In this document: piece after piece, positions 7,240 through 63,313 of the stretch
How the letters are laid out: each line of letters begins with the position of its first letter
Position numbering within the stretch: the stretch's first letter is position 1
Assembly: GCA_964016885.1 (NCBI GenBank)
Contig: OZ024742.1
Location: forward strand, 355,694,001-355,758,000
DNA from: Eledone cirrhosa
Taxonomy: Eukaryota
Length of the DNA: 64,000 nt
Reading direction: 5' to 3'
Notes under the pieces: generated by a model
Told to the model about the DNA's origin: nothing
Databases searched by the model: none
The model's input: the letters and a program-made list of their open reading frames with translations, nothing else
Translations under genes and position numbers: made by a program

Positions 7240-7306
<67 letters not shown>

Positions 7307-7309
<3 letters not shown>

Positions 7310-9646
7310 TAAAATAACAGATTAAAGTTTAAGCAAAGAATCGCTGCTTTCACCCTTAACGGGATCTTCTGAAACTAACAAAGTCAATCTGTAAACGCAG
7401 AAGTGGATATTTCAAAAAACATTGCAACCGGAAGACGATACTTTGGTTCGTGGAATCGTTCTCTATGCAAATAAGTAATGGTATAAACAAAACATATACT
7501 TAGCTCCCACATCGAGACGTAAAATATCCACGTATATATCGTAATATCCGTTAGGGTATAACGTGGGGCTGCAATACAGGAAAGTTTTGTGCAATTTATG
7601 TTTACAAGCCGAAATTGCCTCAGATTTTTGTTTAAGATGTGGTCTGTGGCGTAGAGTATTTCCAGGGTCTCAGCGGCGCAGAGGTCACATGGTCTTTTAT
7701 TTCCGTTATACGATCTAGCCCTAGCCAGGATCTGCCAGTGTAACTTATATTGGGTGTGGTTGTCTTTTATACTCCAGATATAAGCTGAAAGTGACGTCAT
7801 ATTCCTTCTTAGAGGGTAACCAAAAGAATGGGTATGCATGTAAAGACGCTGCTTGAATCTATTGGCGGTTAACCCTATGTAGGCCCAACGGGACGTGGGT
7901 GTTACAACCTTACATTTGTAGAAAATGTTACTAGAGAGGCATTTCCCGGATAGGGGGCAATCAACCCGATTCCTACAATTACAGTTAGTACTAACTACAG
8001 GGTTGCACGTGTTCCTACGGCTAGGTAGTTTAGCTAAATTTGAAGCTGAGATGTTATGTGCAAGGTTAGCTGTCGTAGAGTAAGACATTTTAATAGTCTT
8101 TCTATTAAAGATTTTACTATATTTATGTGTAGGGGGAAAATGCTTCGTAATAAGGGAAAGAAAGATCTTAGCTAATGGTGTGGCGACCTCCATATTATAT
8201 GGTGGGTTATACCAACAAATGCGACGGGATCTTTTTTTTCTAGGTCTATTTTAGTACTCCGTATATGCTACCTTATCGACAAATCCACTTCGATCAAGAG
8301 GTTCATTGTAATAAGTGGAATAGTCGTTGAAAATACGCTCGTTGGTGGAAAGAGGGGGAAAGCCTCAACGAAACGTTTCTTACCAGCTTCTTGGTTATGC
8401 TGGCAGGATGGTTGGAATGCTTACTTATGTAATTAAACGTATCATTCGGCTTTCTATACGGGTAATACAACCCATTCGATAAATTGAGGGTAACGTCGAG
8501 GTAATTAATGACCGAGAGATTGGCGTCAACCTGTATAGAGAGGTTGAAGCCTTTAAAGAAGGCTGTGAGTTCTTTTCTGAACCTGTCGCAAGCACGAGGT
8601 CCGCACTTAGTCATGGTCAAAAGACCATCGTCACGGTACAAACCACCACCCGCGTTGGGGAATTCGTCCTTGATAGAGAAAAGAAGGAAAAGGCCGATAA
8701 GATCAGTAACCTCCGCAGAATCACTGGCGCCCATACTCACGTCGAATGGGGTACTATTGTTTTGTTTTATCCTAATAGAGTCGTCGAAATTAATCACCAA
8801 CTTTCGTGCATTGAGGATGACATCAACTTCGAAATTCTTAACTACTGTGAGTGTTTTAGCGAAATTGATAGCTCTAAGGAGAAGTGGTAAAGGGATGGAG
8901 GAGTAGTAATTGTTGATGTCGAATTGGATAAAACGGCAATGTTCCTTGTTACATCAGCCGTTGAACCAATCAATCACCGCGAAAGAATTGTTCCACAGTG
9001 CTAGAGAGGCCAAACTACTAATTTCAGGTATAATTCTATCTAGAATCGTTTTACTAATTCTGCCTAAATCGGACTTCTTAGGGTTAATAAGCCGAATAGA
9101 GGGGTTGTTCGGAAAATTGGATTTGTGACCCTTTAGGGTAAAGTGGGGAGAGATAGGGTCCATGTGACCTCTGCGCCGCTGAGGCCCTGGAAATACTCTA
9201 CGCCACAGACAAACATTTTAAACAAAAAATCTGAGGCAATTTCGGCTTGTAAACATAAATTACACAAAACTTTCCTGTATTACAGCCCCACCTTATACCC
9301 TAACGGATAGTACGATCTATATGTGGATATTTTACGTCTTGATGTGGGAGCTAGGTATATGTTTTGTTTATACCATTACTTATTTGCATAGCGAACGTTT
9401 CCACGAACCAAAGTATCGTCTTCCTGTCTTCCTCCGGTTGCAACGTTTTGTGAAATATCCACTTCTGCGTTTACAGATTGACTTTGTTAGTTTCAGAAGT
9501 TCCCGTTAAGGGTGAAAGCAGCGATTCTTTGCTTAAACTTTAATCTGTTTTTTTAATAAATATTTGCTCTACGGTTCTTATATATTTGATATATATTTAT
9601 CCTTATCGAGCCCTCTTTGGATTTTAGTCTTCAAATTTATTATTGT

Positions 9647-9650
<4 letters not shown>
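7307..9650 (-). mobile_element. Naiad-type PLE: RT-GIY-YIG pseudogene on minus strand (about 7550-9163) joined to an inverted copy of its 3' end (9163-9563) plus tail
   Basis: TLKGHK.NF.NNPSIRLINP.KSDLGRISK, FDVSMGASDSAEVTDL, GLYRDDG, CNCRNRVDCPL, YIGLT..FKQR..H, CDLC; both ends abut (TA)n. Confidence 0.92.
7326..7376 (-). ncRNA. Hammerhead-like motif with CAGAAGA core in Naiad pLTR (also 9489-9539 + and 63241-63291 +)
   Basis: AGTTT CAGAAGA T-CCC-GTTAA-GGG-T GAAA GCA-GCGATTCTT-TGC TT AAACT; all three helices pair. Confidence 0.65.
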
Positions 9651-11872: not shown

Positions 11873-11950
<78 letters not shown>

Positions 11951-11952
<2 letters not shown>

Positions 11953-12393
11953 AAAGTTCTATTTAAAATTGTTGGGATACAACAAGTAAGTATTTTTATA
12001 ACTGATATAAAGCACTCGACAAGTATTTGGAGTAGATATACGATATTAATAAATGGAAACTATATTTATAAAACCATATTTATTTCATTATACATATTTC
12101 AGGGATACCAAATAAAATTATGGTATGCCTTCATCAGACAAAATACAATATATAACAGTTTTACAAATAAGCTTTGACGTACCCTATTAAAATGCAACCA
12201 TTGTTTTTGGAAGTCATCCGGATGACTTCCAAAAACAATGGTTGCATTTTAATAGGGTACGTCAAAGCTTATTTGTAAAACTGTTATATATTGTATTTTG
12301 TCTGATGAAGGCATACCATAATTTTATTTGGTATCCCTGCAAATGTGTAATGAAATAAATATGGTTTTATAAATATAGTTTCCATTTATTAAT

Positions 12394-12397
<4 letters not shown>
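11951..12397. mobile_element. Fold-back (inverted pLTR) non-autonomous PLE, family A, with hammerheads
   Basis: Arms 12043-12219 and 12220-12395 with no spacer (centre TCCGGA); intact hammerhead 12081-12145 (-); right-arm copy has GCAAA; unique tail 11951-12042. Confidence 0.85.
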
Positions 12398-12443
<46 letters not shown>

Positions 12444-16248: not shown

Positions 16249-16358
<110 letters not shown>

Positions 16359-16536
16359 TATTAGTTTGTCACAGTAAGTTAGGTACTCAATTCAAAGCAG
16401 AGTATAAATATTTAATGTAGAAAAGGCTTCTACAGGACTAGAACTGTAGAAGACTTTTCTACATCAACTATTAATATATATATATATATAAATGAAAGGT
16501 ATAAAAAACATTGTCGAAAGAAGCCAACAGTATCCC

Positions 16537-27256: not shown

Positions 27257-28840
27257 AGAAAAACAATAATAAATGCATGGATAATTCATAGTTCGAAATA
27301 ATGTTTATAATAATTCGTAATTTGGATATTTACTATATTTGAATCATGGATATAAGAATGCGGTAGGTATATTTAAAAACAGAAAATATAATTGCATACA
27401 CATTATAAATAAGAGATCAGAAAGGCATTGAAAATTCACAGTTATAAATAAGTTCAGTAAAGATGTAAGGGTTGGATACAAAACTCAGATTTAAAACTTA
27501 AGTAGGAAGATAAGGATAGAGAAATGAGAAAATAACGGTATGGATCAAAGTTAACAGAATAATGTTATATGTATCAATGTTCCGTCATGTTATTGAACAA
27601 GTGTCTTTCATTCGAGCATTATTTCTTCTATAGATAGTTATAAGATAATGCTATATTAAAGGCCATTAATGTTTTTCCCTGTTGATTATATACATCTGAC
27701 AACCAAGTTTTTAATGGTTTACTGTTTCTCACTCTTTTTTTCTCGTTTTGTGGGAGGCTAAGAATGTGGAGGTAGCTTTGTGGAGGGAACTAGAGAATAA
27801 TACAATTTTTTTGTTAATTAGGGTATCGTAGTTTTTAATAATCAACAGGGTTTCCATTGTACAGAGTGCGCAGTTATTTGATATACTAGAGTTGTGGTAA
27901 ACTCCACAGTTCCGAAGTTTTGTCCAAAGAATGGAGTATTTTAAATTCTTCTCTTTTAATGACCATATGAGCTGTGATAAAGACGTGGATGATTTCATCT
28001 TTGAGTTCGAGGATGAGCATTTATGGTTCGCAAATCTGGCTTTAAAAGTGGAAGAAGTGGATCCTATGTAGTTGTAAGTATTATGATCAGTTTTTACGGT
28101 GCATTTATAAACCAAATTACTATCTAAACAATTAATTTGCAAAGGGCAATCAGATTTATTTCTACAGTTACATTTTGGTTTAGTATCATTTATGTTAACT
28201 CTATTATTAATATCATTATGCTGGTTTTGTTTTAGGATGTTAGTGTTTAATTTGGCGATGTTTGGGCCATGTTACTGGTTATAGAATGTGAGAATTTAAT
28301 GGTATGTCTATTAAAAATGGAATGGTATTTATGTTGAGTAGGGAAAGAAGTGTCAAGAGCTTTAAAGAATCATTTTGCGATTGGTGTTTTAACTGCGACA
28401 GGAGCAGGGGTGGGTGGGCAAACCATATGACTGGTTTAGTTCTAGTTCTTATCCTCGATTTATTTGGCGTATGGGTGTTTGAATTATAATTAATAGAGTT
28501 TCTCTTATATATGTTATTATTTTTATTAAGATTAATATTTGGATTATTATTATCTACATATTCTATGTTATTCGTATATCCTGCTCTTTTTAACGCGTTG
28601 TTATAGTATTCAGCATTTTCCTCAAATATATGTTTATTGGCTGATATTTTATTAATTCGTTTTTGCACACTATTTACTATAGCTTTCTTTACATATTTAG
28701 GGTGATTGGAATTGTTACTAACATAGTTTAAGTTTTCATTGGGCTTATGAAAAGGGTAATAGAAGCCAGTGTTTAAGTTAAAGGTAACGTCTAGGAAATT
28801 AACTATTTTGGTACCATTTTCTACTTCTAATTTTATTAAA
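27255..28840 (-). mobile_element. Naiad-type PLE fragment (RT thumb + GIY-YIG + 3' UTR)
   Basis: VNFLDVTFNL..YYPFHKPN, SNHP, CNCRNKSDCPL, VYKC, YIGST..FKARF..H, CALC. Confidence 0.88.
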
Positions 28841-28929
28841 TTGTTGCTGTTCCATTCATGTTTTCTACTTAATTTAATTAAATTAAAAAAATTAAAAATT
28901 AAATTAAAATTAAATTAAATTAAATTAAA

Positions 28930-30332
<1,403 letters not shown>

Positions 30333-32347: not shown

Positions 32348-32353
<6 letters not shown>

Positions 32354-32633
32354 TTAGAAATTATAAGCTTTCACCGTATTTTTAGACTAAAGAAATTTCT
32401 AGCCTGATAGTGGGGTTTATACCCCTCTGAGAAATGGAAAAGGATTGAGTGTAGCCATGTACGGCAATACTCATCTTTTTCCATTTCTCCGAGGGTTATA
32501 AACCCCACTATCAGGCTAGAAATTTCTTTAGTCTAAAAATGCTGTGAAAGCTTATAATTTCTAATTTCTAATTTCAAACTCGCGCACCGCTTCAAAAACA
32601 TACTTACATGTTTACGTTTATAATTTGCTTGTT
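32348..32633. mobile_element. Fold-back element in (TA)n with one-sided tail
   Basis: Arms 32348-32450 and 32470-32571; tail to 32633. Confidence 0.75.
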
Positions 32634-32734: not shown

Positions 32735-32738
<4 letters not shown>

Positions 32739-33167
32739 CGTTTCTGAATTTGTTTAGCAAGATTCTTTATCTGAAATCGTGTGTTGAAACCGATATTGTT
32801 ATACTTTGGGGGGGTCATGTTGCCAATAAGAAACACACGCACCAGTTGCTTTCACTTCAATTTATTATATATTTATAAATTCATAAATTTACAAATTTAC
32901 AAATCTACAAACTTATAAATTTCTGGTTGGTTGGTTGGTTCCACAACCAGATAGTTGTTTATATATATAGTCATAGTCCTTTCGCCACACACTCTGTGAC
33001 CTCTTCAGTGACTGGGGATTCCTTTCTTCGTTTCTGTGCCTTTCCTTTCTTCTATCCTACGCCATTTGTAAATTTGTAAATTTATGAATTTATAAATATA
33101 TAATAAATTGAAGTGAAAGCAACTGGTGCGTGTGTTTCTTACTGGCAACATGACCCTCCCAAAGTAT

Positions 33168-33172
<5 letters not shown>
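32735..33172 (-). mobile_element. Family B element with intact hammerhead 32969-33013 and inverted 5' pLTR (33065-33172)
   Basis: AGTCA CTGAAGA G GTCACA..TGTGGC GAAA GGAC TA TGACT. Confidence 0.8.
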
Positions 33173-33222
<50 letters not shown>

Positions 33223-33226
<4 letters not shown>

Positions 33227-33660
33227 GAAGTTCTATTTAAATTGTTGGGATACAACAAGCAAATATTTTTATAACTGATATAAAGCACCCAACAAATTAT
33301 TGGAGTAAAAATACGATATATTAACAAATGGAAACTATATTAATAAAACCATATTTATTTCATTATACATATTTCAAGCACACCATGTTAAATTATGGTG
33401 GGCTTTCATTAGATAAAATATAATATAGATCAGTTTTATAAATAAATATTGACATACCCTTAAAGAATGCGACCATTTCTGTTGGAGCTTCCAACAGAAA
33501 TGGTCGCATTCGTTAAGGGTATGTCAATATTTATTTTTAAAACTGATCTATTTTATATTTTATCTAATGAAAGCACACCATAATTTACTTGGTGTCGTTG
33601 AAATATGTATAATGAAATAAATATGGTTTTATAAATATAGTTTCCATTTGTTAATACATC

Positions 33661-33661
<1 letters not shown>
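33223..33661. mobile_element. Fold-back family A element (second copy)
   Basis: Homologous to 11951-12397; arms meet at about 33487; both arms read CTAATGA. Confidence 0.85.
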
Positions 33662-33699
<38 letters not shown>

Positions 33700-33843: not shown

Positions 33844-34355
33844 GAAATAACAGGATGCTGGACTCGTGTAATTCCTTAAATGTTTTATTATACTATGATC
33901 ATTTCAATGACCGGTTGCAATATGAATCCGGTCACATCATCAAGTATTCGAAATATAACAAAGGAATATAATAGACAAAATCGATGGGGCAAAATCCTTG
34001 AGGGCGGTTGACCGGTGTAGAAGCGGCTAAATGTTCGGTCGCCCTCATGTCTCTTATTTTAATCCCCATGGAGTTTGTATATTATATTCCGTTGTTACAT
34101 TTCGAATACCTGACGATGTCACCGGATTTATACTGAGCCCTGTCATTTAAATGGTCATAGTATAATAAACCTTTTAAAGAATTACACCAGTCCAGCCTCC
34201 TTTTATTTTATAATAATTAACTCCGTAATCCCACCACCAACTACACAAACGGAAACGGATGAGTTGCATTACGTTGAGAGCTCTCCATAATATTACATCG
34301 AGGTTGGCCATACGGAATTACCAGTTCTATCCAGTGGTAAACCAACCAACGTAAG
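33841..34355. mobile_element. Fold-back element, family G, with decayed hammerheads and tail
   Basis: Arms 33841-33978 and 34074-34212; consensus ATAC CTGATGA TGTGACCGG..CCGGTCATT GAAA TGATCA TA GTAT. Confidence 0.7.
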
Positions 34356-34448
34356 TATATATATATATGTGAGAAAAACCACATATATATATGTGAAAAA
34401 GCACATATATATATGTAAGAAAAACCACAAACCCTCCATCTCAACTCA

Positions 34449-36418: not shown

Positions 36419-36419
<1 letters not shown>

Positions 36420-36610
36420 GTTATTCCGGGTTGAATCGGAGGTAACCACAGTAAGTAAGGTACCCAATACATTGCAGAATATAAAAGTTTTAATATAGAT
36501 GAGATTCTACAGGACTAGAACTGTTTCATTCTTTAGAAATCATCAGGAGATTCCTGATGATTTCTAAAGAATGAAACAGTTCTAGTCCTGTAGAATCTCA
36601 TCTATATTAA

Positions 36611-36614
<4 letters not shown>
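36419..36614. mobile_element. Mini fold-back element, family E, with hammerhead 36547-36599 (+)
   Basis: Perfect arms 36487-36547 and 36553-36614; GAGATTC CTGATGA TTTCTAAAGAAT GAAA CAG-TTCTAGTC-CTG TA GAATCTC; shorter relative at 16362-16475. Confidence 0.8.
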
Positions 36615-36660
<46 letters not shown>

Positions 36661-36666
<6 letters not shown>

Positions 36667-37878
36667 GACGTAAAATAAGAAAATTATAAAAATTAACTTA
36701 CTTACTAAAATTTCACTCCATCTAATTAGTTTCTGAAAGGGAATAAACATGGTTTACAAATGGAACAACATGGAGAATGCCTTTCGTCATAGGAAGTCAA
36801 TTCTCAGCTAAGTTCCCAGGCGATGCGTGGACACAGGGAACTTATACAAAAATAATTCAGTGAATGGAAAAAAGCAAGCGAGGACTAAATTCCAAGACAT
36901 TGAAAAAATCACTGCCAACTTGGTCGGTGGCAAATTCAAAAGAATCAATCACGTGACATCGAGGTTAATCAGTGAGGGGTGGGGTGTTAAGAAGACAGTA
37001 GCCGAACTATTACTATGAACTATAGTAGCACTTTTGGCCAATTTTTTGCTCAACAAAATAATTTGGAGATAATTATAAAGAATTAGTATATCTACCAACA
37101 TATATATATATACAGATGCATACCTATGCTGGCAAATATATAGGCTTTGTCTTAGTAATTTTGTGGTTCAATGCAAGGCGATGGAGGACAATTATATGAA
37201 AGATGTAAAATAAGAAAATTATAAAAATTAACTTACTTACTAAAATTTCACTCCAACTAATTAGTTTCTGAAAGGGAATAAACATGGTTCCGAATGGAAA
37301 AACATGGAAAATGCCTTTCGTCATCAGGAAGTCAATTCTCAGCTAAGTTCCCAGGTGATGCGTGGACACAGGGAACTTATACAAAAATAATTCAGTGGAT
37401 GGAAAAAAGCAAGCGAGGACTAAATTCCAAGACATTGAACAAATCACTGCCTTATTGGTCCGTGGCAAATTCAAAAGAATCAATCACGTGACATCGAGGT
37501 TAATCAGTGAGGAGTGGGGTGTAAAGAAGTAAGTAGCCGAACTATTACTATGAACTATAGTAGCAGTTTTGGCACATTTTTGCTCAACAAAATAATTTGG
37601 AGATAATTATAAAAATTATTATATTGACTTCCTGATGAGGAAAGGCATTCTCCTTGTTGTCCATTCGGAAACCATGTTTATTCCCTTTCAGAAACTAATT
37701 AGTTGGAGTGAAATTTTATAAGTAGGTTAATTTTTATAATTTTCTTATTTTACGTCTTTCTTATAATTGTTCTGCATCCCCTTGCATTGAACCACAAAGT
37801 TACTAAGACAAAACCTATATATTTGTTAGCATAGGTATGCATCTGTATATATATGTTGGTAGATATACTAATTTTTTA
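36661..37878 (-). mobile_element. About 535-bp tandem unit (two copies) plus inverted terminal copy, each with a long-helix-II hammerhead
   Basis: 36661-37085 repeated at 37196-37618; 37624-37878 inverts about 37078-37335; GACTTC CTGATGA .GAAAGG...CCTTTC. GAAA CTAATTAG TT GGAGT at 37250-37333 (-) and 37626-37710 (+). Confidence 0.8.
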
Positions 37879-37961
37879 TATATATATATATATATATTAA
37901 TTGTCAATGAAAGAGGCATGGGAGAAGAATACAATAATGATATATATATATATATAGATAC

Positions 37962-46671: not shown

Positions 46672-46675
<4 letters not shown>

Positions 46676-48210
46676 ACTGAAATTCACACCAACACCACAA
46701 TACTCCAACCTCAATGCGATAAATGACGATAACTCACACTTCTATAAAAAATTACGTCTCACAGAGGAATTCTTTGACAAGGAGAATTACGACGAATCAA
46801 TTGTACGGAATAAAAGCAGTTACAACCCAACAAAATGTAGAAACAGTTTTCTGGACAAATTTTGTGACCACATAGCTACTTTCCCATACCATGAAATACC
46901 GCACGCTAAACCAAAACCCAACACGAGTCGAAGGGAATGGGAGATTATCCATGAACTAAAAAACAATACGGACATTATAATTAAGGAAGCGGCCAAGGGA
47001 AGTACTGTTGTCATTATGGATGCTGAAAAATGTAAAAATTCTATGCTTTCTCTATTACAAAATACTAATTACTATGAAAGAGTAAAAAAACTACCAGCAA
47101 TCAAAAACAATGACCAGATTAAACACACTGATGTGTCGATACTAGGAAGACTTAACTCAAAAGGAACGCTATTATTTAACAAATTTTGAATACAAAACCA
47201 GCAAACTTTACGGACTTCAGAAGATCCCCAAGTGTAAAATAATCCACCTCAGCCTGCGTGAAGACACAATACCACACAGACCTTTAATTAAGACCAATTG
47301 TAGCGGACGCACAATGTGAAACACACAGGATGAGCAACTTTATAGACATACTACTAAAGCCAATTCTGAAACACATACCAAGCCTTGTAAGAGACGATAT
47401 GGACATCTTAAACCACCTCCCCAAACATGTCAACAACGACACTAGTATTGTGTCTTTCGATGTAGTGAATCTCTACACAACAATCCCACACCAATCCGGA
47501 CTAGAAGCAATAGGATTCTGGCTAGAGAAATATCCCAATGAGATATCTGGCAATAGGCAATGATGAATTACGAAAACAGAAACAAATTCAAGATACGTCC
47601 AATATTCTATCATATATCTCAACACAACCCAAGAAATGCGGAAGCTTACAACACTATTCACAAGAACATCCCACTATTAAAACAAGACCCAAGAGTGAAA
47701 AAAAGCCCTTGAAACACACAAAATAATCAAAAGCAAAAGACAACCGAAATCACTGAAAACATTACTCACCAATGCCAAATTACCTAACACAAACCCACAA
47801 CCAACTGTCAAAAAATGTGGTCGCTCTAATTGTGGAACCTGCACTCACCTCATTGAAGGCAACACGTATAGATTTAAAGCAGGACAAAATGTTGCTGTAA
47901 AAAATCACTTCACTTGCTCATCAAAAAATCTACTTTATGCCATTAAATGTAAAGGATGCAATGAAGATTATATAGGACAAACTAAACTCACACTCAGAAA
48001 CAGTATGACAGTTCATCGCCAACAATTACAAGATCCAACCACAAGACAGATACCACTAAGCGCACATCTAGACATATGCGCAAGTAATAAGACAGCCAAA
48101 TTTCAAGTCTTCCCATTAAACCTTTGCGCTAACCATACAATATAACAAATACGAATAAATAAGGAAGATATGTTTATTCAAAAATATAGACCAGCATTAA
48201 ATATGGTTTA
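46672..48210 (+). pseudogene. Neptune-type PLE with internal deletion (RT N-half fused to Zn linker + GIY-YIG)
   Basis: [40 protein letters not shown], jump at about 47540, CGRSNCGTC, CSSKNLLYAIKC..C..YIGQT. Confidence 0.88.
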
Positions 48211-51237: not shown

Positions 51238-51239
<2 letters not shown>

Positions 51240-51928
51240 CTACCAAGAGTTTACGGTAGTGTCCAATCCGTATGAAGAACTCAATGTAATCCGGATATCA
51301 TGGAAAGAAGAGATGCATTCAAAAATCACTTTCGGTGAAAGATAAACGGAATACAGAGTCAAGTTAAAGTATTAAAAAAATAATGAATAAAACAATGAAA
51401 CAGTTCCTTATATTAAACAAAAAAAGTTCATTATTTAACGATCGTTTCTAGGACATATATGTGTTAGAATTGGCATGCATATTCAACAGATCTATGTACA
51501 AAATTATACAAAATTATACAAACTATCAAATATAATATACATACCAACACATACATATGCCGTCTTTAGAAATAATGAAATATATTTATTGATAATAACA
51601 ACAATTCAAAGTTACAGGTCTGTTTGGGAACAGAGTTCAAATTGACCAGTGAAATACACAAAAATATATCAAGAAAATACAGTTAGGTGTGTGTATATAT
51701 GTAAGTAACTTCGTTCACAGATATGCATAAAAATATATGTTCACATGCATACGCATGTCGAAAAAATGTATGTAAATACAAACATTCAGAGCTAATGTCT
51801 CTGTATGTTTATAATCTACAGATAAAATACACATACGTATATAAACATATATACATTCATATATACACACATATACATACATTCACACACACACGCGCAT
51901 ATACACATAAACATACACATACCCACGA

Positions 51929-52010
<82 letters not shown>

Positions 52011-52235
52011 GTATATATTATTATTATAACTATATGGATATTAAGGCGCACACATAAACACTGCCACATATATTGTTACATCTACATGCAGAAGTAGGTA
52101 AATGGAGTCAGTAATTACTAAGTGTGTCAGAGAACTGCCTATTTATAAAATGTATCTATAAATTTAGAAATAAAAAGAAATATATTTAAAAAAATAAACA
52201 AGTAAAATATATACTCATACATAAAATACACACCG

Positions 52236-52318
<83 letters not shown>

Positions 52319-52745
52319 CATACATATACATATAGAGACACATACATATACATATATAAATACATAGACACACATACATACACACGTATATATACATATA
52401 TTCACGACACACATATATATATATATACACATATATGTACATACACATACACACATACATACATATACATATATACATACACACATATATATACACACAT
52501 ATATACACACATATATATATACATAGACACACATATATATACACACACACACATACATATGCGTATATATACACACACATACACATATCCATGTATGTAT
52601 ATACACATACAACCACACGCTCACACAACTCAGACATACATAAATAAAGATATATACATACACACATATACATATATATATATATATATATATAGTTATA
52701 TACATACACATAAATATATATACACACACACACACACATATACAT

Positions 52746-52796
<51 letters not shown>

Positions 52797-54656
52797 CACA
52801 CGCACACATACATATATCCATACACACATATATATACATAGACATATATATACACACATATATATACATATATATACATATATATATACATATATATACA
52901 TACATATATATATATATATACAATCATACACACTTATTTACATGCGCACATATGTATTTTTATACTCACATACAAACACCCAAACATACATACCTACTTA
53001 CATACACATACATACATCCAGGCTTACAAATACAAATAATTATAGGGCGGGGGGGGGGGGATTAAAATTATTAGTGAGAAATAGTAAATATAGGTTTCAA
53101 GGAACATAGAATATTAATCTGCATTTAGATCATAATATGTGTTTACATAGTAGTTTCAGTATTAGGAAATGTAAGAAAGAAGGCAAAATTATGCATTTTA
53201 ATATAAGTAGACTATTAATTATAGGTTAACTAAATTAAAATAGTTAATATATTGATTTCTAAGGTGTATACTACTTAGGTTTATAATATTTGAAGCGGGA
53301 CTTTGAAGTTAAACAGTAGCAGAGTATTAATTATAGCATAACTAAATTAAAAATATTAACATTATGGTATCAATATTAGGAAATTAATTTAGTAATAGGG
53401 AAAACCAAATCAAGTATTTCATCGGTAGTAGAATATAAATTATAGGTTAACTAAATTAAAAATGATATATTAATTTCTATAGTATATGTTAATTAGGTTT
53501 ATAATAATTAAAGCAGATTTTGTATTTTATCTATAGTAGAATATAATTATAGGTTAACAAAAATTAAAATTAATATTTAATTGTAAAGAATATTTTAATT
53601 AGGTATATATTTAAAAAATTATCTCAGTTTATGATTACATGATATTCTGCAATCCATCTGTATTAGAATTTTAATTTTAAGCTAATTAAATTAAAATTAT
53701 AGGTTAACTAAATTAAAATTAATTCATGAATAAATTTCTAAATTGTACATTAATTAGGTTTATAATATTAAAAAATATTTCTCTGTTATTGATTACACGA
53801 TATTTTGTTATATTTCATCTGTAAAGGAATTTTAATAAAAGGTTAAATAAACTAAAATTAATCTATAAATGAATTTACAAAGTATATATTAATTATGTTA
53901 ATAATATTTAAAAGTTTTTCACAATTTATGATTACACAATATTTTTTTAATCTCATCTGTAGTAGAATTTTAATTAAATTAAATTTATAGGTTAACTACA
54001 TTTAAATAAAATTATATATTAATTTCTAAAATATATATTATTAATTAGGTTTATAATATTTAAATGTTTTTCTCACGATATAATTAATTCCTGTCGCTTA
54101 TTTAATAGGATATCCTTAGATTTCATTATTTCAAATAGTTCTTGGGAACATAATCTACATTCATTTCTATTATTTTGATAAGGGGTGGCTCTTTTGAGCA
54201 CACTCCAGGTCATATCATATTCTATATTCTTATTTCTATAACTATTAATTTTTTCTGCTAGAGATGTTGAATTAGCCAGTGCGGCATTTTTAAAACTATG
54301 TTTGTGGGTATTAAATCTTACCTTAAAATTGGTAGAAGTAGCTCCTGTATATGAGCAAATAGAATCTTTAGTTTTAACTTTACATTAATAAACTATGTTG
54401 TTAACAAGACAATTTCCTTTTAATGGGCAGTTTACTTTGTTTCTACAGTTACAACCTTTCGTTAATTCTGTATTTGAGGAGATATTATGGTTAGTTTGAT
54501 GTATTGGTGGTATACTTATGGTATTTTTACATTTATATGCATTATAGGCACTTATATTTTGTTTTATGTTTTTGGTTGTTGAGTATGAGAATTTAACTGT
54601 TGACCTATTTAAGATTTGATGGTATTTGTGGTTTGGCGGGAAGTTTTTCTCTCGAG

Positions 54657-54704
<48 letters not shown>

Positions 54705-54929
54705 CGGTGTGTATTTTATGTATGAGTATATATTTTACTTGTTTATTATTTTTTATATATTTCTTTTTATTTCTAAATTTATAGATACATTTTATAAATA
54801 GGCAGTTCTCTGACACCCTTAGTAATTACTGACTCCCTTTACCTACTTCTGCATCTAGATGTAAAAATATATGTGGCAGTGTTTATGTGTGCGCCTTAAT
54901 ATCCATATAGTTATAATAATAATATATAC

Positions 54930-54961
<32 letters not shown>

Positions 54962-55525
54962 CTGTGTGTATGTTCGTGGGTATGTGTATGTTTATGTGTA
55001 TATGCGCGTGTGTGTGTGAATGTATGTATATGTGTGTATATATGAATGTATATATGTTTATATACGTATGTGTATTTTATCTGTAGATTATAAATATACA
55101 GAGACATTAGCCCTGAATTTTGTATTTACATACATTTTTTCGACATGCGTATGCATGTGAACATATATTTTTATGCATATCTGTGAACGAAGTTACTTAC
55201 ATATATACACACACCTAACTGTATTTTCTTGATATATTTTTGTGTATTTCATTGGTCAATTTGAACTCTGTTCCCAAACAGACCTGTAATTTTGAATTGT
55301 TGTTATTATCAATAAATATATTTCATTATTTCTGAAGACGGCATATGTATGTGTTGGTATGTATATTTGATAGTTTGTATAATTTTGTATAATTTTGTAC
55401 ATAGATCTGTTGAATATGCATGCCAATTCTAACACATATATGTCCTAGAAATGATCGTTAAATAATGAACTTTTTTTGTTTAATATAAGGAACTGTTTCA
55501 TTGTTTTATTCATTATTTTTTTAAT

Positions 55526-55531
<6 letters not shown>
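51238..55531 (-). mobile_element. 5'-truncated Naiad PLE (GIY-YIG 54085-54657) with 2.8-kb 3' UTR and about 870-bp inverted terminal duplication
   Basis: 51365-52245 is the reverse complement of 54695-55531; CNCRNKVNCPLKGNCL..NIVY, YTGAT..FKVRF..H, C.LC; tail 51238-51364. Confidence 0.85.
53200..54085. repeat. Degenerate AT-rich minisatellite (about 100-120 bp units)
   Basis: Recurring TATAGGTTAACTAAATTAAAA and TTAGGTTTATAAT motifs. Confidence 0.7.
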
Positions 55532-55592
<61 letters not shown>

Positions 55593-55597
<5 letters not shown>

Positions 55598-58500
55598 TTA
55601 GCTAAGCAAAACAAGACCACAAATTTCACAAGGTAGATATTATTGAAAGATTGTCAACACATTTTAGTTTGATATAAGGAGTGTAGCTATTAATAATAAT
55701 AATGTCCGTTTACAATTGTTTCGCAACTCCATATAATATTTCTGGATCAAATGACTATATATATTTATTGATCTGGTCCAGTTGAAATTAATTAACATAA
55801 TTAAAGATAGAGCGGCTCATCGGAACTTCAAAGGAATATAAATTAAAATAAGGAAAGAATGTTACATAATGTAATGTTCCATATATTGGTATTTCACTGT
55901 GGTGTCCTGGGTGTATCAATTGTCTGCCATAATCAAGCAGTATTCTTCTGTCGAGGCTGCATTGTGTGAGATCTGCCTATGAGTAACAAGATGGCGGCCA
56001 ATGGACATATTTACCTTACTAATTAGAGGGTGGTTTAAGGGGATGTAACTCCTTGAGAGATTAGAAATGGTGGGTAGTTTATAGTTAAGTGCTAATTGTT
56101 TTATTTTTTTTATTGAGAAACAGTGTAGGGGAGGTAACTTATAATTATCTAAGTTAGTTATAGCTATTTAACTTATTAGCTACAAGTAACAATGGGGCTA
56201 GATGACTATGTTGGGACAAATATTCTGTTGGCGAAGGAATTGGCCTTTCTATGTTGACAGCTAATAGTTACCTCCGTTCTATCGTTAATCGGTAGGGGTC
56301 GTGATAGTGTTATGTAATATGCTTTGGTAATACAGAGATCACAAGCTTTTCTTCGTCCATTGAACGGTTGGGCCCTAGCTAAGATATCCCATGTTAGTGA
56401 GTGTTCAATGTTGGTTAATTTAAGGTTTTTAATTAGCCTAGCTAGAGATGTCGAACATCTGTTGTTAGGGTCTCGGAAGGAAAAAGAGTGCACGTTATAG
56501 CGCACCTTAAAAGGGTTAGAGGTAGACCCGATATAGGAGCTGGTATTCGAAGCAGTTTTAACCGTGCACCTATAGACCATGTTGGGTGTCAGGCAGTGTC
56601 CATTTAGTGGGCATGCATTAGAGTAACGGCAGTTGCAGTTGCTTCTGCGGTTAGAAAAGTAGGGTAGTTTAACCTAAGTGGTTGGTCAGTGTTAGAAGGA
56701 TTAGATGGGGAGGTGTGCTACTAGAGTAATTATTGGTGTAGTGGCGTGTTGTATTTGATAGGGGTGGTGGTACTGTGGTGTGGGAGTTATACTGTTTAGT
56801 TTATGATGGTTACAGAATGCGATGTGGCTAGCTAGGTTAGGTGTTGTGGAGAATGAGATTTTAATGTTATTTTTATTAAAGAGTTTGTAATATCTATGGT
56901 TGGGGGTTTAGATAGGATAGAGAAGAAGCGTTTAGGGATATTAGTGGCTAAATTAGAATGGGGGGGTTAAGCCAGGTGATATTTCTGGGCATATTCCTTC
57001 TAGGGGTTCTAGTGGAGTTGGTAGGGGCCTTCTTAGGGTTATTATTACCTGGGCATTTGTTATTTGTCATCCCATTGCTCATTCCTATTCTAGGGTTGAT
57101 TTTTAGTTTGGTACTTGGAGTGGGGAGCAGGCCGCTGCCACCATTAAAGTTCCTTGTATAAGTGATGTAACTGCTAAAATTCCGGCGAAACTGGCTATAT
57201 GCTAAGGTATTTTTAGTTCTATTGTCAAGTTTATTATGGGGAATTGCTGCGTTATGGCATTTAGGTATGTAGTAAATGGATTGTTCATAACCAGATTCAG
57301 AAAGCGCCTTATTATAAAATGGTGCATGGTTTATAAATATCTCCTCATTTGCTGATAGAATGGAGATCCTATACGAGATAGATTTGATTACTGCTCTGAT
57401 GACTGCCGGTGGGTGGTTAGAGTGTGGGATAATATATGTAAGTATTTCACCTGGTTTATGGTAACGATAATATAGGTTATTGTTAAGATCCAGGCTGACG
57501 TCTAGGAAGTGTACTACTTCATGGTTCGGCTCGATGTTGATAGAGAGACCGTTATAATTAAAGAATCTATGTAATTGTTTTTTGAGCAAATCAATGCCCC
57601 GATTAGTGCAATTGTGGTCTCCAAATACGGCGCCGTCCCTGTATATTCCGCCTTGCAACGGTTGGATTTCGGCTCTGATGTTATGTAATAGGTAAATTCC
57701 AACTAAATCGGTGATTTGCGCAGAGTCACTTGAGCACTTGGTGATGTCAAAGTTGTCTGTTCTGTCTTTTCTACTCCAGAGTGCTCCGTTGTTTTAAATG
57801 ATGGTCTACCTAGCCATAAGTATGAAGTCAATCTCATTATTGGTTATGTCCGAGTTGGTGCTGGCTAGGGTTAATGTTTTGTTGAGCAGTTCCAGGGTTA
57901 TTGAAACCTTATAGCTGTCACTGTCAAATTGGATGAACCTCATAGATTGCTTGGACCTTAGATCGGAGAAAAATCTAATGACTTGGCCGTTATTGGACCA
58001 CAAAGTGTAGGTGATATCATCCCGTAAACCAGGAATGATCCTATCAAGGATGTTCTTACTGATACGACCCAGGTCGGATGTGGTTGGGCTTATCAGTCTA
58101 ATTGATGGGTTCTATATACAATTTGGCTTATTATCCTTGAGAGAGAATACTTCTTGATTATGGCAGACAATTGATCTACCCAGAACACCATAGTGAAATA
58201 CCAATATATAGAACATTACATTATGTAGCATTCTTTCCTTATTTTAATTTATATTCCTTTGAAGTTCCGATGAGCCGCTCTATCTTTAATTATGTTAATT
58301 ATTTTCAACTAAACCAGATCAATAATGAGATATAGTCATTTGATCCAGAAATATTATATGGAGTAGCAGAAACAATTGTAAACGGACAGTATTATTATTA
58401 ATATTATTATTATTATTTTTTACATTTCTTACATCAAACTAAAATATGTTGACAATCTTTTAATAATGTCTTCCTTGTGAAATATGTGGTCTTGTTTTGC

Positions 58501-58690
58501 TTCACTAATGAATATTTCCAGCTCTGCGCGCCTAACGTCTGAATGAACCCAGCTACCTAGCTTCTTCCCACTGCATATTGCACATTGAGCACATGCCATT
58601 ACGCTTTGGTTTCTAACTAATTCACCAATCTCTGCTCTCCTATCTCCTCTCCTTTCTTAATCTCTCTCTTTACGATGGGTTACTCTTGAA

Positions 58691-58695
<5 letters not shown>
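55593..58695 (-). mobile_element. Naiad-type PLE pseudogene (RT-GIY-YIG 56206-58150) bracketed by inverted pLTRs, each with a giant-helix-II hammerhead motif
   Basis: PSIRLISPT.SDLGRISK, FIQFD, FDIT..SDSAQITDL, GIYRD, CNCRYSNACPL, YIGST; 55593-55911 inverts 58179-58513; CCGATGA...GAAA CAATTG TA at 55708-55826 (-) and 58264-58383 (+). Confidence 0.9.
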
Positions 58696-61007: not shown

Positions 61008-63313
61008 TATTTCGCTAAGACACTCACAGTGGTTAAGAATTTCGAAGTTCATGTCATCCTCAATGCGCAAAAGTCGGTGATTAATTTCGACGACTCTATT
61101 TGGATTAAAAAATCCAGTAGTACCCCATTCGACGTGAGTATGAGCGCCAGCGATTCTGCGGAGGTTACTGATCTTATCGGCCTTTTCCTTCTTTTCTCTA
61201 TCAAGGACGAATTCCCCAACGTGGCTGGTGGTTTATACCGTGATGATGGTCCTTTGACCATGACTAAGTGCGGCCCACGTGCTTGCGAAAGGTTCAGAAA
61301 AGAACTCATAGCCTTCTTTAAAGGCTTCAACCTCTCTATACAGGTTGAGGCCAACCTCTCGGTCGTTAATTACCTCGATGTTCCCCTCAATTTATCGAAT
61401 GGCTTGTATTACCCATATAGAAAGCCGAATGATACGCTTAATTACAAAAGTAAGCATCCAACCATGCCAGCATAACCAAGAACCTGGTAAGAAACGTTTC
61501 GTTGAGGCTTCCTGTCTATCTACTAACGAGCATATTTTCAACGACCATTCCACATATTACAATGAAGCTCTTTCTCGGAGTGGATTTGTCGATAAGGTAG
61601 CATACACAGAGTACGAGAATAGACCTAGAAGAAATAGATCCCGACCCATTATATGGTATAACCCACCATATAATATGGAGGGGGCCACACCATTAGCTAA
61701 GATCTTTCTTTCCCTTATTACGATGCTTTTTTTCCCCCTACACATAAATATAGTAAAATTGTTAATATAAAAACTATTAAAATGTCTTACTCTACGACTC
61801 CTAACCTTGCACATAACATCACAGCTTCAAATTTAGCTAAACTACCTAGCCGTAGGAACACGTGCAACCCTGTAGTTAGTACTAACTGTAATTTTAGGAA
61901 TCGTGTTGATTGCCCCTATCCGGGAAATGCCTCTCTAGTAACATTGTCTACAAATACAAGGTTGAAACGCCCACGTCCCGTAGGTCCTACATAGGGTTAA
62001 CCGCCAATAGATTCAAGCAGCCTCTTTACATGCATACCCATTATTTTCGTTACCGTATAAGAAGGAATATGACGTCACTTTCAGCTTATATATGCAGTCT
62101 AAAAGACAACCACACCCAATATAAGTTACACTGGGAGATCCTAGCTGGGGCTAGATCGTATAACGGAAATAAAAGAACTGTGACCTCTGCGCCGCTAGGT
62201 CCTTGGAAATACTCTACGCCACAGACCACATCTTAAACAAAAAATCTGATGCAATTTCTGCTTGTAAGCATAAATTGCACAAAACCTTCCTGTATTACAG
62301 CCCCACATTATCCCCTAACGGATAGTACGATATATACGCGGATATTTTACGTCTTGATGTGGTAGCTAAGTATATGTTATGTTTATACCATTACTTATTT
62401 GCATAGGTAAGTATATATTACCTGTATGTTTCGTGAAGGTACGTATACTTTCTCGTACGTATATTTGATTGTATATGTTATGGCGTATGTTTTATATATT
62501 CTGGTACATTTGCTTTTGGTAATGTGTATACGTGAGTTTTGCGTATGTGTGAGTACGCGGGATCGTACGTATGTAGGGTGTGTGTGTACATGTCTACTTC
62601 GTGTTTTGGTTGACGTACGTCTCCGAACATTTGTGTATTTACATGTAGGTATGTGTGTGCGCATGTTATATACGTATTTATTTATTTATATACGTTTATT
62701 TAATTATTTGTATACACGCACACACACACACACATATTTAAATGTGCGTGTATTTGTATACCTATGGCGAGTGTTTTTACGTATGCTTTTGTATGTACGT
62801 ATTTGGATGCCTGTATGTATTTATTTAAATTTAATTACCTCTGTATTTTATTTACTTTATTCTTAACTCTGATGCGGAGAATCATTCGGTTTCATAGTTA
62901 GAATTTTAGTCTACGACTTCAGTTATACCATTTACGTGGTTTTGTCTTTGCGTGCAATTGTTCTCTACGCTCCACATATGACGTATTATATTCGTTTTTT
63001 GCGTTCTTTGCCAGAGAACGTCTCTATGAACCACCTAAGAGAATAATAGTCTACGACTTCTTTTATACAATAAACGTGGTTCTGTCTTTTTCACCGCTCC
63101 AAATAAAGACGTATTATATTCGTTTTTTCCCGTTCTTTGCCAGGGAACGTTTCCACGAACCAAAGTATCGTCTTCCTGTCTACCCCCGGTTGCAACGTTT
63201 TTTGAAATATTCACTACTGCGTTTAAAGATTGACTTTGTTAGTTTCAGAAGATCCCGTTAAGGGTGAAAGCACCGATTCTTTGCTTAAACTTTAATCTGT
63301 TATTTTAATAAAT
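61008..63313 (+). mobile_element. Naiad-type PLE (same family as 7307-9650), 5'-truncated, with intron-containing 3' UTR
   Basis: Near-identical RT/GIY-YIG remnants 61008-62320; pLTR ends at (TA)n. Confidence 0.92.
62407..63143 (+). other. Spliceosomal intron in the PLE 3' UTR
   Basis: AG|GTAAGT donor and TTTTTTCCCGTTCTTTGCCAG acceptor; precisely absent from sister copies at 9391 and 7463. Confidence 0.85.

What the first reader, a model, noticed from the sequence alone, without database searches (positions are those of the whole stretch)
36661..37878. 535-nt tandem unit with inverted cap: retrozyme-like monomer with PLE-style insertion structure
Seen: two direct copies plus an inverted terminal copy. 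The hammerhead has an about 50-nt helix II domain and a palindromic CUAAUUAG helix III; copy 1 lost a core base (CTATGA). Inference: more-than-unit-length cDNA from a circular or re-used template followed by 5' inversion links tandem retrozymes to PLE machinery in one insertion.
Basis: partly seen in the sequence, partly recalled or inferred. Interest (0 to 1): 0.7.

Follow-up and report, generated by a model that had tools for sequence, protein, structure and literature searches.

The report
Ribozyme-bearing mini Penelope-type repeat insertion
This is a decayed copy of a common non-coding repeat with a predicted self-cleaving RNA fold, laid down as tandem units plus an inverted cap in the pattern already described for Penelope-like jumping genes, which likely copied it in; it is an ordinary new member of a known kind.

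Summary
Observation confirmed with corrections: 1.8 head-to-tail units (535-nt spacing, 94% alike) plus a 255-nt inverted copy, between two (TA)n tracts; each copy carries a type I hammerhead fold (52-nt helix II, palindromic helix III), broken in copy 1. Laid public data show a many-copy family in three organism labels, with (TA)n joined at the same 3' end as here in 15 contigs of one run: a fixed Penelope-style end, not a randomly permuted one. The three copies share subfamily alleles and differ mostly by private changes, so they likely come from one old event. Partial tandem + inverted truncated copy + one-sided tail + (TA)n target is the published Penelope-like element (PLE) layout, and 10 of 20 other inverted pairs in this window show the same asymmetry. 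That animal retrozymes are non-autonomous PLE derivatives is already argued in a 2026 preprint. Circular RNA, cleavage and the autonomous partner are untested. This scan noted similar PLE-style insertions in two other genomes. Mildly unusual: a 117-nt tail, and the direct part stops where the inverted cap starts. Verdict: new member of a known kind, low interest.

The parts
36614..36662 (.). (TA)n tract at the short (3') end; likely target site
36663..36801 (-). Terminal repeat copy 1: broken hammerhead (G5 lost, U16.1 changed) plus 57 nt, ending at family end Y
   Evidence: same end joined to (TA)n in 15 X1 contigs and 1 X6 contig
36802..37091 (-). Non-coding body, copy 1 (last 18 nt shared with the tail end, site X)
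   Evidence: no protein match
37074..37336 (-). Internal terminal repeat (pLTR-like): hammerhead + 57 nt to Y + 117-nt tail to X
37250..37332 (-). Type I hammerhead fold, complete core, predicted cut after 37255
37337..37622 (-). Non-coding body, copy 2; its 5' end lies at site X and forms the inversion junction
37623..37877 (+). Inverted 5'-truncated copy: starts 4 nt before helix I, runs through the whole tail to X
37627..37709 (+). Type I hammerhead fold in the inverted copy, complete core
37877..37897 (.). (TA)n tract at the tail end

Best explanation
The locus holds 1.8 head-to-tail units of a many-copy, non-coding 535-nt repeat with a predicted hammerhead ribozyme, plus an inverted cap, between two (TA)n tracts, and it was likely inserted in one old event by the reverse transcriptase/endonuclease of an autonomous Penelope-like element acting in trans. 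Shown: layout, family, fixed 3' end Y, shared subfamily alleles, private decay. Inferred steps: (1) a tandem master copy is transcribed into a multi-unit RNA that is mostly uncleaved; (2) a PLE protein nicks both strands of a (TA)n tract; (3) one 3'-OH primes internally at Y, 57 nt past the ribozyme site, and copies about 960 nt, reading through two ribozyme sites; (4) the other primes at X, 117 nt further downstream, and copies 255 nt; (5) the two cDNA ends join head to head over a 2-nt microhomology, giving the inverted cap and one-sided tail; (6) the copies then decayed by about 3% each, breaking copy 1's ribozyme.
For: Layout equals PMC8557442 Fig. 2 legend and text and Pen2a_Av in PMC3846280. 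Both-strand cleavage and extension, AT-rich targets, two internal start sites that define the tail, and uncleaved template are shown for an anole PLE (PMC11167929). Family: 2815 contigs laid in X1, 127 in X5, 133 in X6. (TA)n joined before 37193 in 15 X1 contigs and a (TA)n-Y join in 1 X6 contig; X1 summed depth rises from 103,587 (37170-87) to 412,482 (37188-205). At 12 of 12 places where >=96% of X1 depth differs from the laid copy, another copy of the locus has the family base; the copies agree at 9 of 10 places polymorphic in the family and all three share a 6.5% minority base at 37334 (23 of 40 shown rows used). Private changes 4/4/5 in 145 three-way columns. 10 of 20 other inverted pairs in the window have one arm on (TA)n and a 47-184-nt tail on the other. 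Helix I U.G is C-G in 71% of X1 depth.
Against: No autonomous partner found: no pLTR or body homology elsewhere in the window, no genome held, 0 matches in 2 metagenome scans. No TSD can be read inside (TA)n. The tail (117 nt) is longer than the published 30-40 nt. The depth step at Y is not seen in X5 (125.7, 152.6, 117.3) and summed contig depth is not a copy number. No laid contig spans a whole unit. Ribozyme activity is doubtful (extra A before G12, GUU site, no Rfam match; only 1 of 9 predicted retrozymes cleaved in the preprint).
Confidence: 0.7

Rival explanations
1. Classical retrozyme route: the hammerhead cuts monomers, they circularise, and a PLE enzyme copies round the 535-nt circle to give more-than-unit cDNA and the cap.
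For: Tail-to-body join also appears in organism B (X5 record 12, 37056-37203; loose end behind 37089 resembling the tail). Copies look identical at origin. circRNAs are shown for other animal retrozymes (PMC7229834); model in PMC4209133. The cut-to-cut monomer folds better than shuffles (z -2.5, 60 shuffles).
Against: A circle and an uncleaved tandem give the same DNA; PLE-type minimal hammerheads cleave weakly and cleavage was not needed for insertion in vitro; this core is non-canonical.
Confidence: 0.2
2. A single unit inserted first; the tandem and the inversion arose later at DNA level (unequal exchange, fold-back repair).
For: The 2026 preprint favours local tandem amplification of PLE ends. 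The copies share one haplotype.
Against: Both outer ends sit at element-defined sites joined to (TA)n; the same asymmetric inverted layout recurs in 10 of 20 other pairs in the window; three other inverted joints exist in the family; divergence is star-like.
Confidence: 0.07
3. Assembly artefact or a DNA-transposon MITE.
For: Complex PLE repeats trouble assemblies; the exact junction of this locus was not among the listed joints.
Against: Copies differ by 6-7%, which collapse or fold-back artefacts do not produce; inverted ends are unequal by 117 nt; hammerhead fold and internal tandem are not MITE features.
Confidence: 0.03

Closest known systems
Animal non-LTR retrozymes (Cervera & de la Pena 2020, PMC7229834; Li, Clavereau & Pollet 2026, bioRxiv 10.64898/2026.07.22.740005)
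   Same: Non-coding, low-GC (34%) tandem unit with a type I hammerhead; unit within the 51-972 bp range; dispersed many-copy family; proposed to be moved by PLEs.
   Different: Larger than the typical ~300-bp monomer; PLE-type minimal ribozyme with a 52-nt variable helix II rather than the canonical loop-loop type; only one of the two tandem ribozymes is intact; no RNA evidence; an inverted cap was not described in the passages I read of PMC7229834 (0 occurrences of 'inverted').
EN+ Penelope-like element insertions (Arkhipova et al. 2013, PMC3846280; Craig et al. 2021, PMC8557442; Frangieh et al. 2024, PMC11167929)
   Same: Partial tandem forming pLTRs, inverted 5'-truncated copy, tail on one end only, hammerhead in the pLTR, (TA)n/AT-rich target, end downstream of the ribozyme.
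   Different: No RT/GIY-YIG ORF; tail 117 nt instead of 30-40; tail end joins directly to the body so the unit closes on itself.
PLE minimal hammerheads (Cervera & de la Pena 2014, PMC4209133)
   Same: Short helix I (5 bp), long helix II, unpaired base after A9, G10.1-C11.1 pair, palindromic helix III; pairs on opposite strands 100-700 bp apart were reported there (here 305 bp).
   Different: Extra A between C11.1 and G12; U at position 17; 52-nt helix II domain.
Non-autonomous Chlamys PLEs such as MRC1 (PMC8557442)
   Same: Non-autonomous elements that make pLTRs and multicopy head-to-tail insertions.
   Different: Algal; autonomous Chlamys mostly lack canonical hammerheads.
L1 twin priming (recalled, not from a call)
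   Same: The inverted segment begins where the direct cDNA stops.
   Different: No poly(A), no L1-type TSD, internal fixed ends.

Membership tests
Animal non-LTR retrozyme | Type I hammerhead in the unit | tested here: met
   Fold and core found, 0 in 30 shuffles; non-canonical extra A; no Rfam match
Animal non-LTR retrozyme | Head-to-tail tandem units | tested here: met
   1.8 units here; join also in organism B
Animal non-LTR retrozyme | Two consecutive complete ribozymes ('active' criterion of the 2026 preprint) | tested here: not met
   Copy 1 has two core changes; the locus is a decayed copy
Animal non-LTR retrozyme | Non-coding, GC under 50% | tested here: met
   GC 34%; no Pfam family above cut-off for 4 frames, no Atlas hit for the longest body frame
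Animal non-LTR retrozyme | Self-cleavage and circular RNA | not testable with these tools
   No RNA holder listed; needs bench work
Non-autonomous PLE insertion | Partial tandem forming pLTRs with hammerhead | tested here: met
Non-autonomous PLE insertion | Inverted 5'-truncated copy at the 5' end | tested here: met
Non-autonomous PLE insertion | Tail on one end only | tested here: met
   117 nt, longer than the published 30-40; local PLE-like insertions have 47-184 nt
Non-autonomous PLE insertion | AT-rich / (TA)n target and fixed internal 3' end | tested here: met
   Both flanks; 15 + 1 contigs with (TA)n at Y
Non-autonomous PLE insertion | pLTR homology to an autonomous PLE | tested here: inconclusive
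   None in the 64-kb window; no genome held; 0 hits in 2 metagenome scans
Non-autonomous PLE insertion | Target site duplication | tested here: inconclusive
   Hidden by (TA)n on both sides
Autonomous PLE | RT plus GIY-YIG ORF | tested here: not met
   Longest stop-free frame 72 codons; no family match

The most novel reading that the evidence does not exclude
The family is an expressed, very abundant circular-RNA retrozyme whose insertions record the PLE dimer mechanism: both target strands prime on the same RNA at two sites 117 nt apart, and the first cDNA stops where the second one began (PLE twin priming), which would explain the inverted cap and one-sided tail of PLEs in general. Here the cap's outer end and the direct part's inner end fall in the same 18 nt, and 2 of 3 other inverted joints in the family have one side within 20 nt of it (37108, 37111; orientation not resolved).
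Probability: 0.2. Interest if true: 0.55.

Novelty: new member of a known kind. Interest (0 to 1): 0.22.

Why it matters
As it stands it adds an invertebrate-type example to the view that animal retrozymes are non-autonomous PLE derivatives, with a PLE insertion signature at one locus; the 2026 preprint relied on co-occurrence and pLTR trees, mainly in vertebrates. A short, many-copy, non-coding family with two defined end sites would be a convenient statistical and in vitro substrate for the open question of how PLE inverted/tandem insertions form. It does not change current models by itself.

Tried and rejected
Rfam: no hammerhead match. Whole genome: none held. Metagenome scans with two exact patterns: 0 and 0. 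No RNA holder listed; this is no evidence on expression. Coding origin of the body: no Pfam family above cut-off for 4 unit frames (best E 0.17), no usable Atlas hit, tblastx hit at 34285-34419 (E 7e-4) not supported at DNA level (scores 28-34 vs shuffle means 29-32). The 66-codon frame from the AUG inside the ribozyme in copy 2 depends on a 1-nt gap absent from the other two copies, rejected. Molecule ends in run X7: all 6 shown fall on AATT sites, so they are library artefacts, not element ends; its loose ends were not used for end mapping. 'Goes back 535' joints only reflect where I cut the reference inside the body and are not evidence of tandems. Shared loss of one G at both terminal copies of site X: too close to junctions to use. 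Earlier findings by sequence and by place: none. Lunse et al. on PLE hammerhead variants was not held, so whether the extra-A core is described there is open. Preprint supplements were not seen and may list similar families. Organism not established; a literature search with 'octopus' was a guess from base composition and showed nothing on this family.

Full report
Observation. The window is an AT-rich, microsatellite-rich animal-type sequence with many fragments of RT and GIY-YIG-like frames; no whole genome is held. The direct repeat is 36658-37091 / 37193-37624, 94.3% over 435 nt at a spacing of 535; 37623-37880 is the reverse complement of 37074-37336 (91.7%). In ribozyme sense (minus strand) the direct part reads body (37622-37337), hammerhead plus tail (37336-37074), body (37091-36802), hammerhead plus 57 nt (36801-36663), then (TA)n. 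That is about 960 nt or 1.8 units. The inverted copy starts 4 nt before helix I, runs through the whole tail and ends on (TA)n. I call the short end Y (37198 in unit terms) and the long end X (37081); they are 117 nt apart. The cap's outer end and the direct part's inner end both fall in 37074-37091, and the junction has a 2-nt microhomology, so flipping the cap in place gives a continuous 2.3-unit tandem.

Ribozyme. A descriptor scan gave 3 hits in the window and 0 in 30 shuffles. The motif is type I: helix I 5 bp, an unpaired base after A9, a G10.1-C11.1 pair opening a 6-bp stem and a 52-nt helix II domain, palindromic CUAAUUAG, predicted cut after GUU at 37255. These match the PLE minimal hammerheads of PMC4209133 (parts 1-2 of 4 read), which also reports pairs on opposite strands 100-700 bp apart. 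Atypical are an extra A before G12 and U17. Copy 1 lacks G5 and has U16.1 changed. Against a strong ribozyme: no Rfam match and the free minimum-energy fold is not the catalytic one. In the family, the helix I U.G pair is C-G in 71% of X1 depth; a G-C to U-A swap in helix II is suggested by the 37274 variant (48% in X1) and by loose-end sequences, but phase was not shown. The helix II loop is the most variable part of the family.

Family. Six runs from 2 studies and 3 organism labels hold part of the stretch, none half of it or more, none on record as RNA. Laying one unit (36900-37434, 80% likeness) on 4 of the 9 listed runs gave 2815, 127 and 133 contigs and 7334 reads. Summed depth in X1 reaches 6.4e5 against 5-26 for the listed long contigs; the tool warns that this is no copy number, so I only infer a high-copy family. 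Fifteen X1 contigs carry (TA)n joined before 37193 and one X6 contig carries (TA)n joined at the same end, so Y is a family end; 365 further loose ends were hidden, so X as a family end is not shown. X1 depth steps up fourfold at Y; X5 does not show the step. The tail-to-body join is seen in organism B (record 12, 37056-37203, 18 body-only letters; and a loose end behind 37089 that matches the tail by eye), which is moderate evidence. Three opposite-strand joints are listed: 37111/37355, 37108/37422, 37237/37426; this locus's own joint is not listed. All 6 shown molecule ends of RAD run X7 are AATT sites and were discarded.

One event, then decay. Pairwise differences are 26/432, 17/258 and 10/146; private changes are 4, 4 and 5 in 145 shared columns. 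I mapped 23 of the 40 variant rows shown (159 more were hidden); the 17 dropped were 15 rows under 30% in X1 and 2 rows inside the indel-rich loop. At 12 of 12 places where 96% or more of X1 depth differs from the laid copy, another copy of the locus has the family base. At 9 of 10 places polymorphic in the family the copies agree (the tenth is at an indel), and all three share a base at 37334 that only 6.5% of X1 depth has. The copies therefore derive from one template lineage and likely one old event. This does not separate a circle from a homogeneous tandem.

Local context. Of 22 inverted pairs (80% or more, 60 nt or more, within 5 kb) 2 belong to the finding; 10 of the other 20 have one arm within 3 nt of (TA)n and the other arm extended by 47-184 nt up to (TA)n, and an eleventh is ambiguous. 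For random positions these distances have probabilities 0.008 and 0.18; masking makes alignments stop at microsatellites, but it does not create the asymmetry. One of them, 7306-9650, holds RT-like and GIY-YIG-like frames; the RT-like frame matches animal clusters with RVT_1 in 12-13% of members (Atlas 0.93-0.97), while Pfam itself gave no match for it; its reading as a Hydra-clade PLE is from recalled motifs and untested. Of 6 insertions tested, only the finding repeats its tail inside itself. No homology links the unit to these neighbours.

Mechanism. Shown elsewhere for an anole PLE (PMC11167929, parts 1-2 of 4 read): the protein nicks and extends both strands of AT-rich DNA, starts reverse transcription at two internal sites downstream of the hammerhead whose spacing defines the tail, and mostly uses uncleaved RNA. 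Applied here by inference: priming at Y gives the direct part, priming at X gives the cap, and the cDNAs join head to head. I put 0.7 on this with a linear tandem template, 0.2 on a circular template, 0.07 on later DNA rearrangement and 0.03 on artefact. PMC3846280 (passages) instead proposes self-priming on an antisense template for inverted junctions; my data do not test that.

What is known. PMC8557442 (passages) describes partial tandems, an inverted 5'-truncated copy, a 30-40-bp one-sided tail, (TA)n bias and non-autonomous head-to-tail PLEs. PMC7229834 (passages and Discussion) defines animal retrozymes and names PLEs as likely helpers. bioRxiv 10.64898/2026.07.22.740005 (parts 1-3 of 5; supplements not seen) concludes that they are non-autonomous PLE derivatives, with units of 51-972 bp, and found cleavage in 1 of 9 tested. 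PMC6765202 (passages) reviews dimeric PLE hammerheads. I found no description of this family or of twin priming in PLEs in searches (listings only; none of 11 listed papers held both 'twin priming' and 'pLTR'); subscription papers and Repbase/Dfam were not searchable. Two earlier notes of this scan describe PLE-style palindromic or tandem-plus-inverted-head insertions in other genomes.

Verdict. Real, correctly seen, and best filed as a decayed insertion of a non-autonomous PLE-derived, retrozyme-like repeat: a new member of a known kind. It works like a PLE passenger; membership as an active retrozyme fails at this locus (one of two tandem ribozymes broken) and is untested for the family. Interest 0.22.

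Noticed in passing
window 36419-36613: Adjacent separate palindromic insertion centred just before a hammerhead-like core (36554+/36546-), with a 67-nt tail on the left arm; a relative lies at 16353-16472. It shares the (TA)n tract 36614-36662 with the finding.
   Followed up: partly
window 7306-9650, 11950-12398, 29542-30284, 32348-32633, 32737-33171, 33224-33662, 51238-55530, 55595-58695: Inverted-pair insertions bounded by (TA)n with one-sided tails of 47-184 nt, mostly longer than the published 30-40-nt PLE tail.
   Followed up: partly
window 7306-9650 and 61009-63311: Two related decayed elements (91.8% over 1406 nt) with RT-like and GIY-YIG-like frames, likely PLEs; further such frames at 27729-28914, 46674-48145, 56206-58111.
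   Followed up: partly
window 10878+, 10796-, 22010-, 29179+, 33008-, 40679+: Further hammerhead-like cores with a helix II and GAAA followed by AT-palindromic sequence, from other families (read by eye).
   Followed up: no
window 37278-37319 (family): The helix II loop is replaced by unrelated sequence in other subfamilies while the base stem appears to be kept.
   Followed up: partly
window 36663-37877: If transcribed through, the cap would pair with the direct copies (238 of 433 predicted pairs), giving long double-stranded RNA that would mask the ribozymes.
   Followed up: no
window 29589-30284: Inverted pair with an inner 73-nt palindrome at the junction (29863-29935), as described for PLE inverted junctions.
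   Followed up: no
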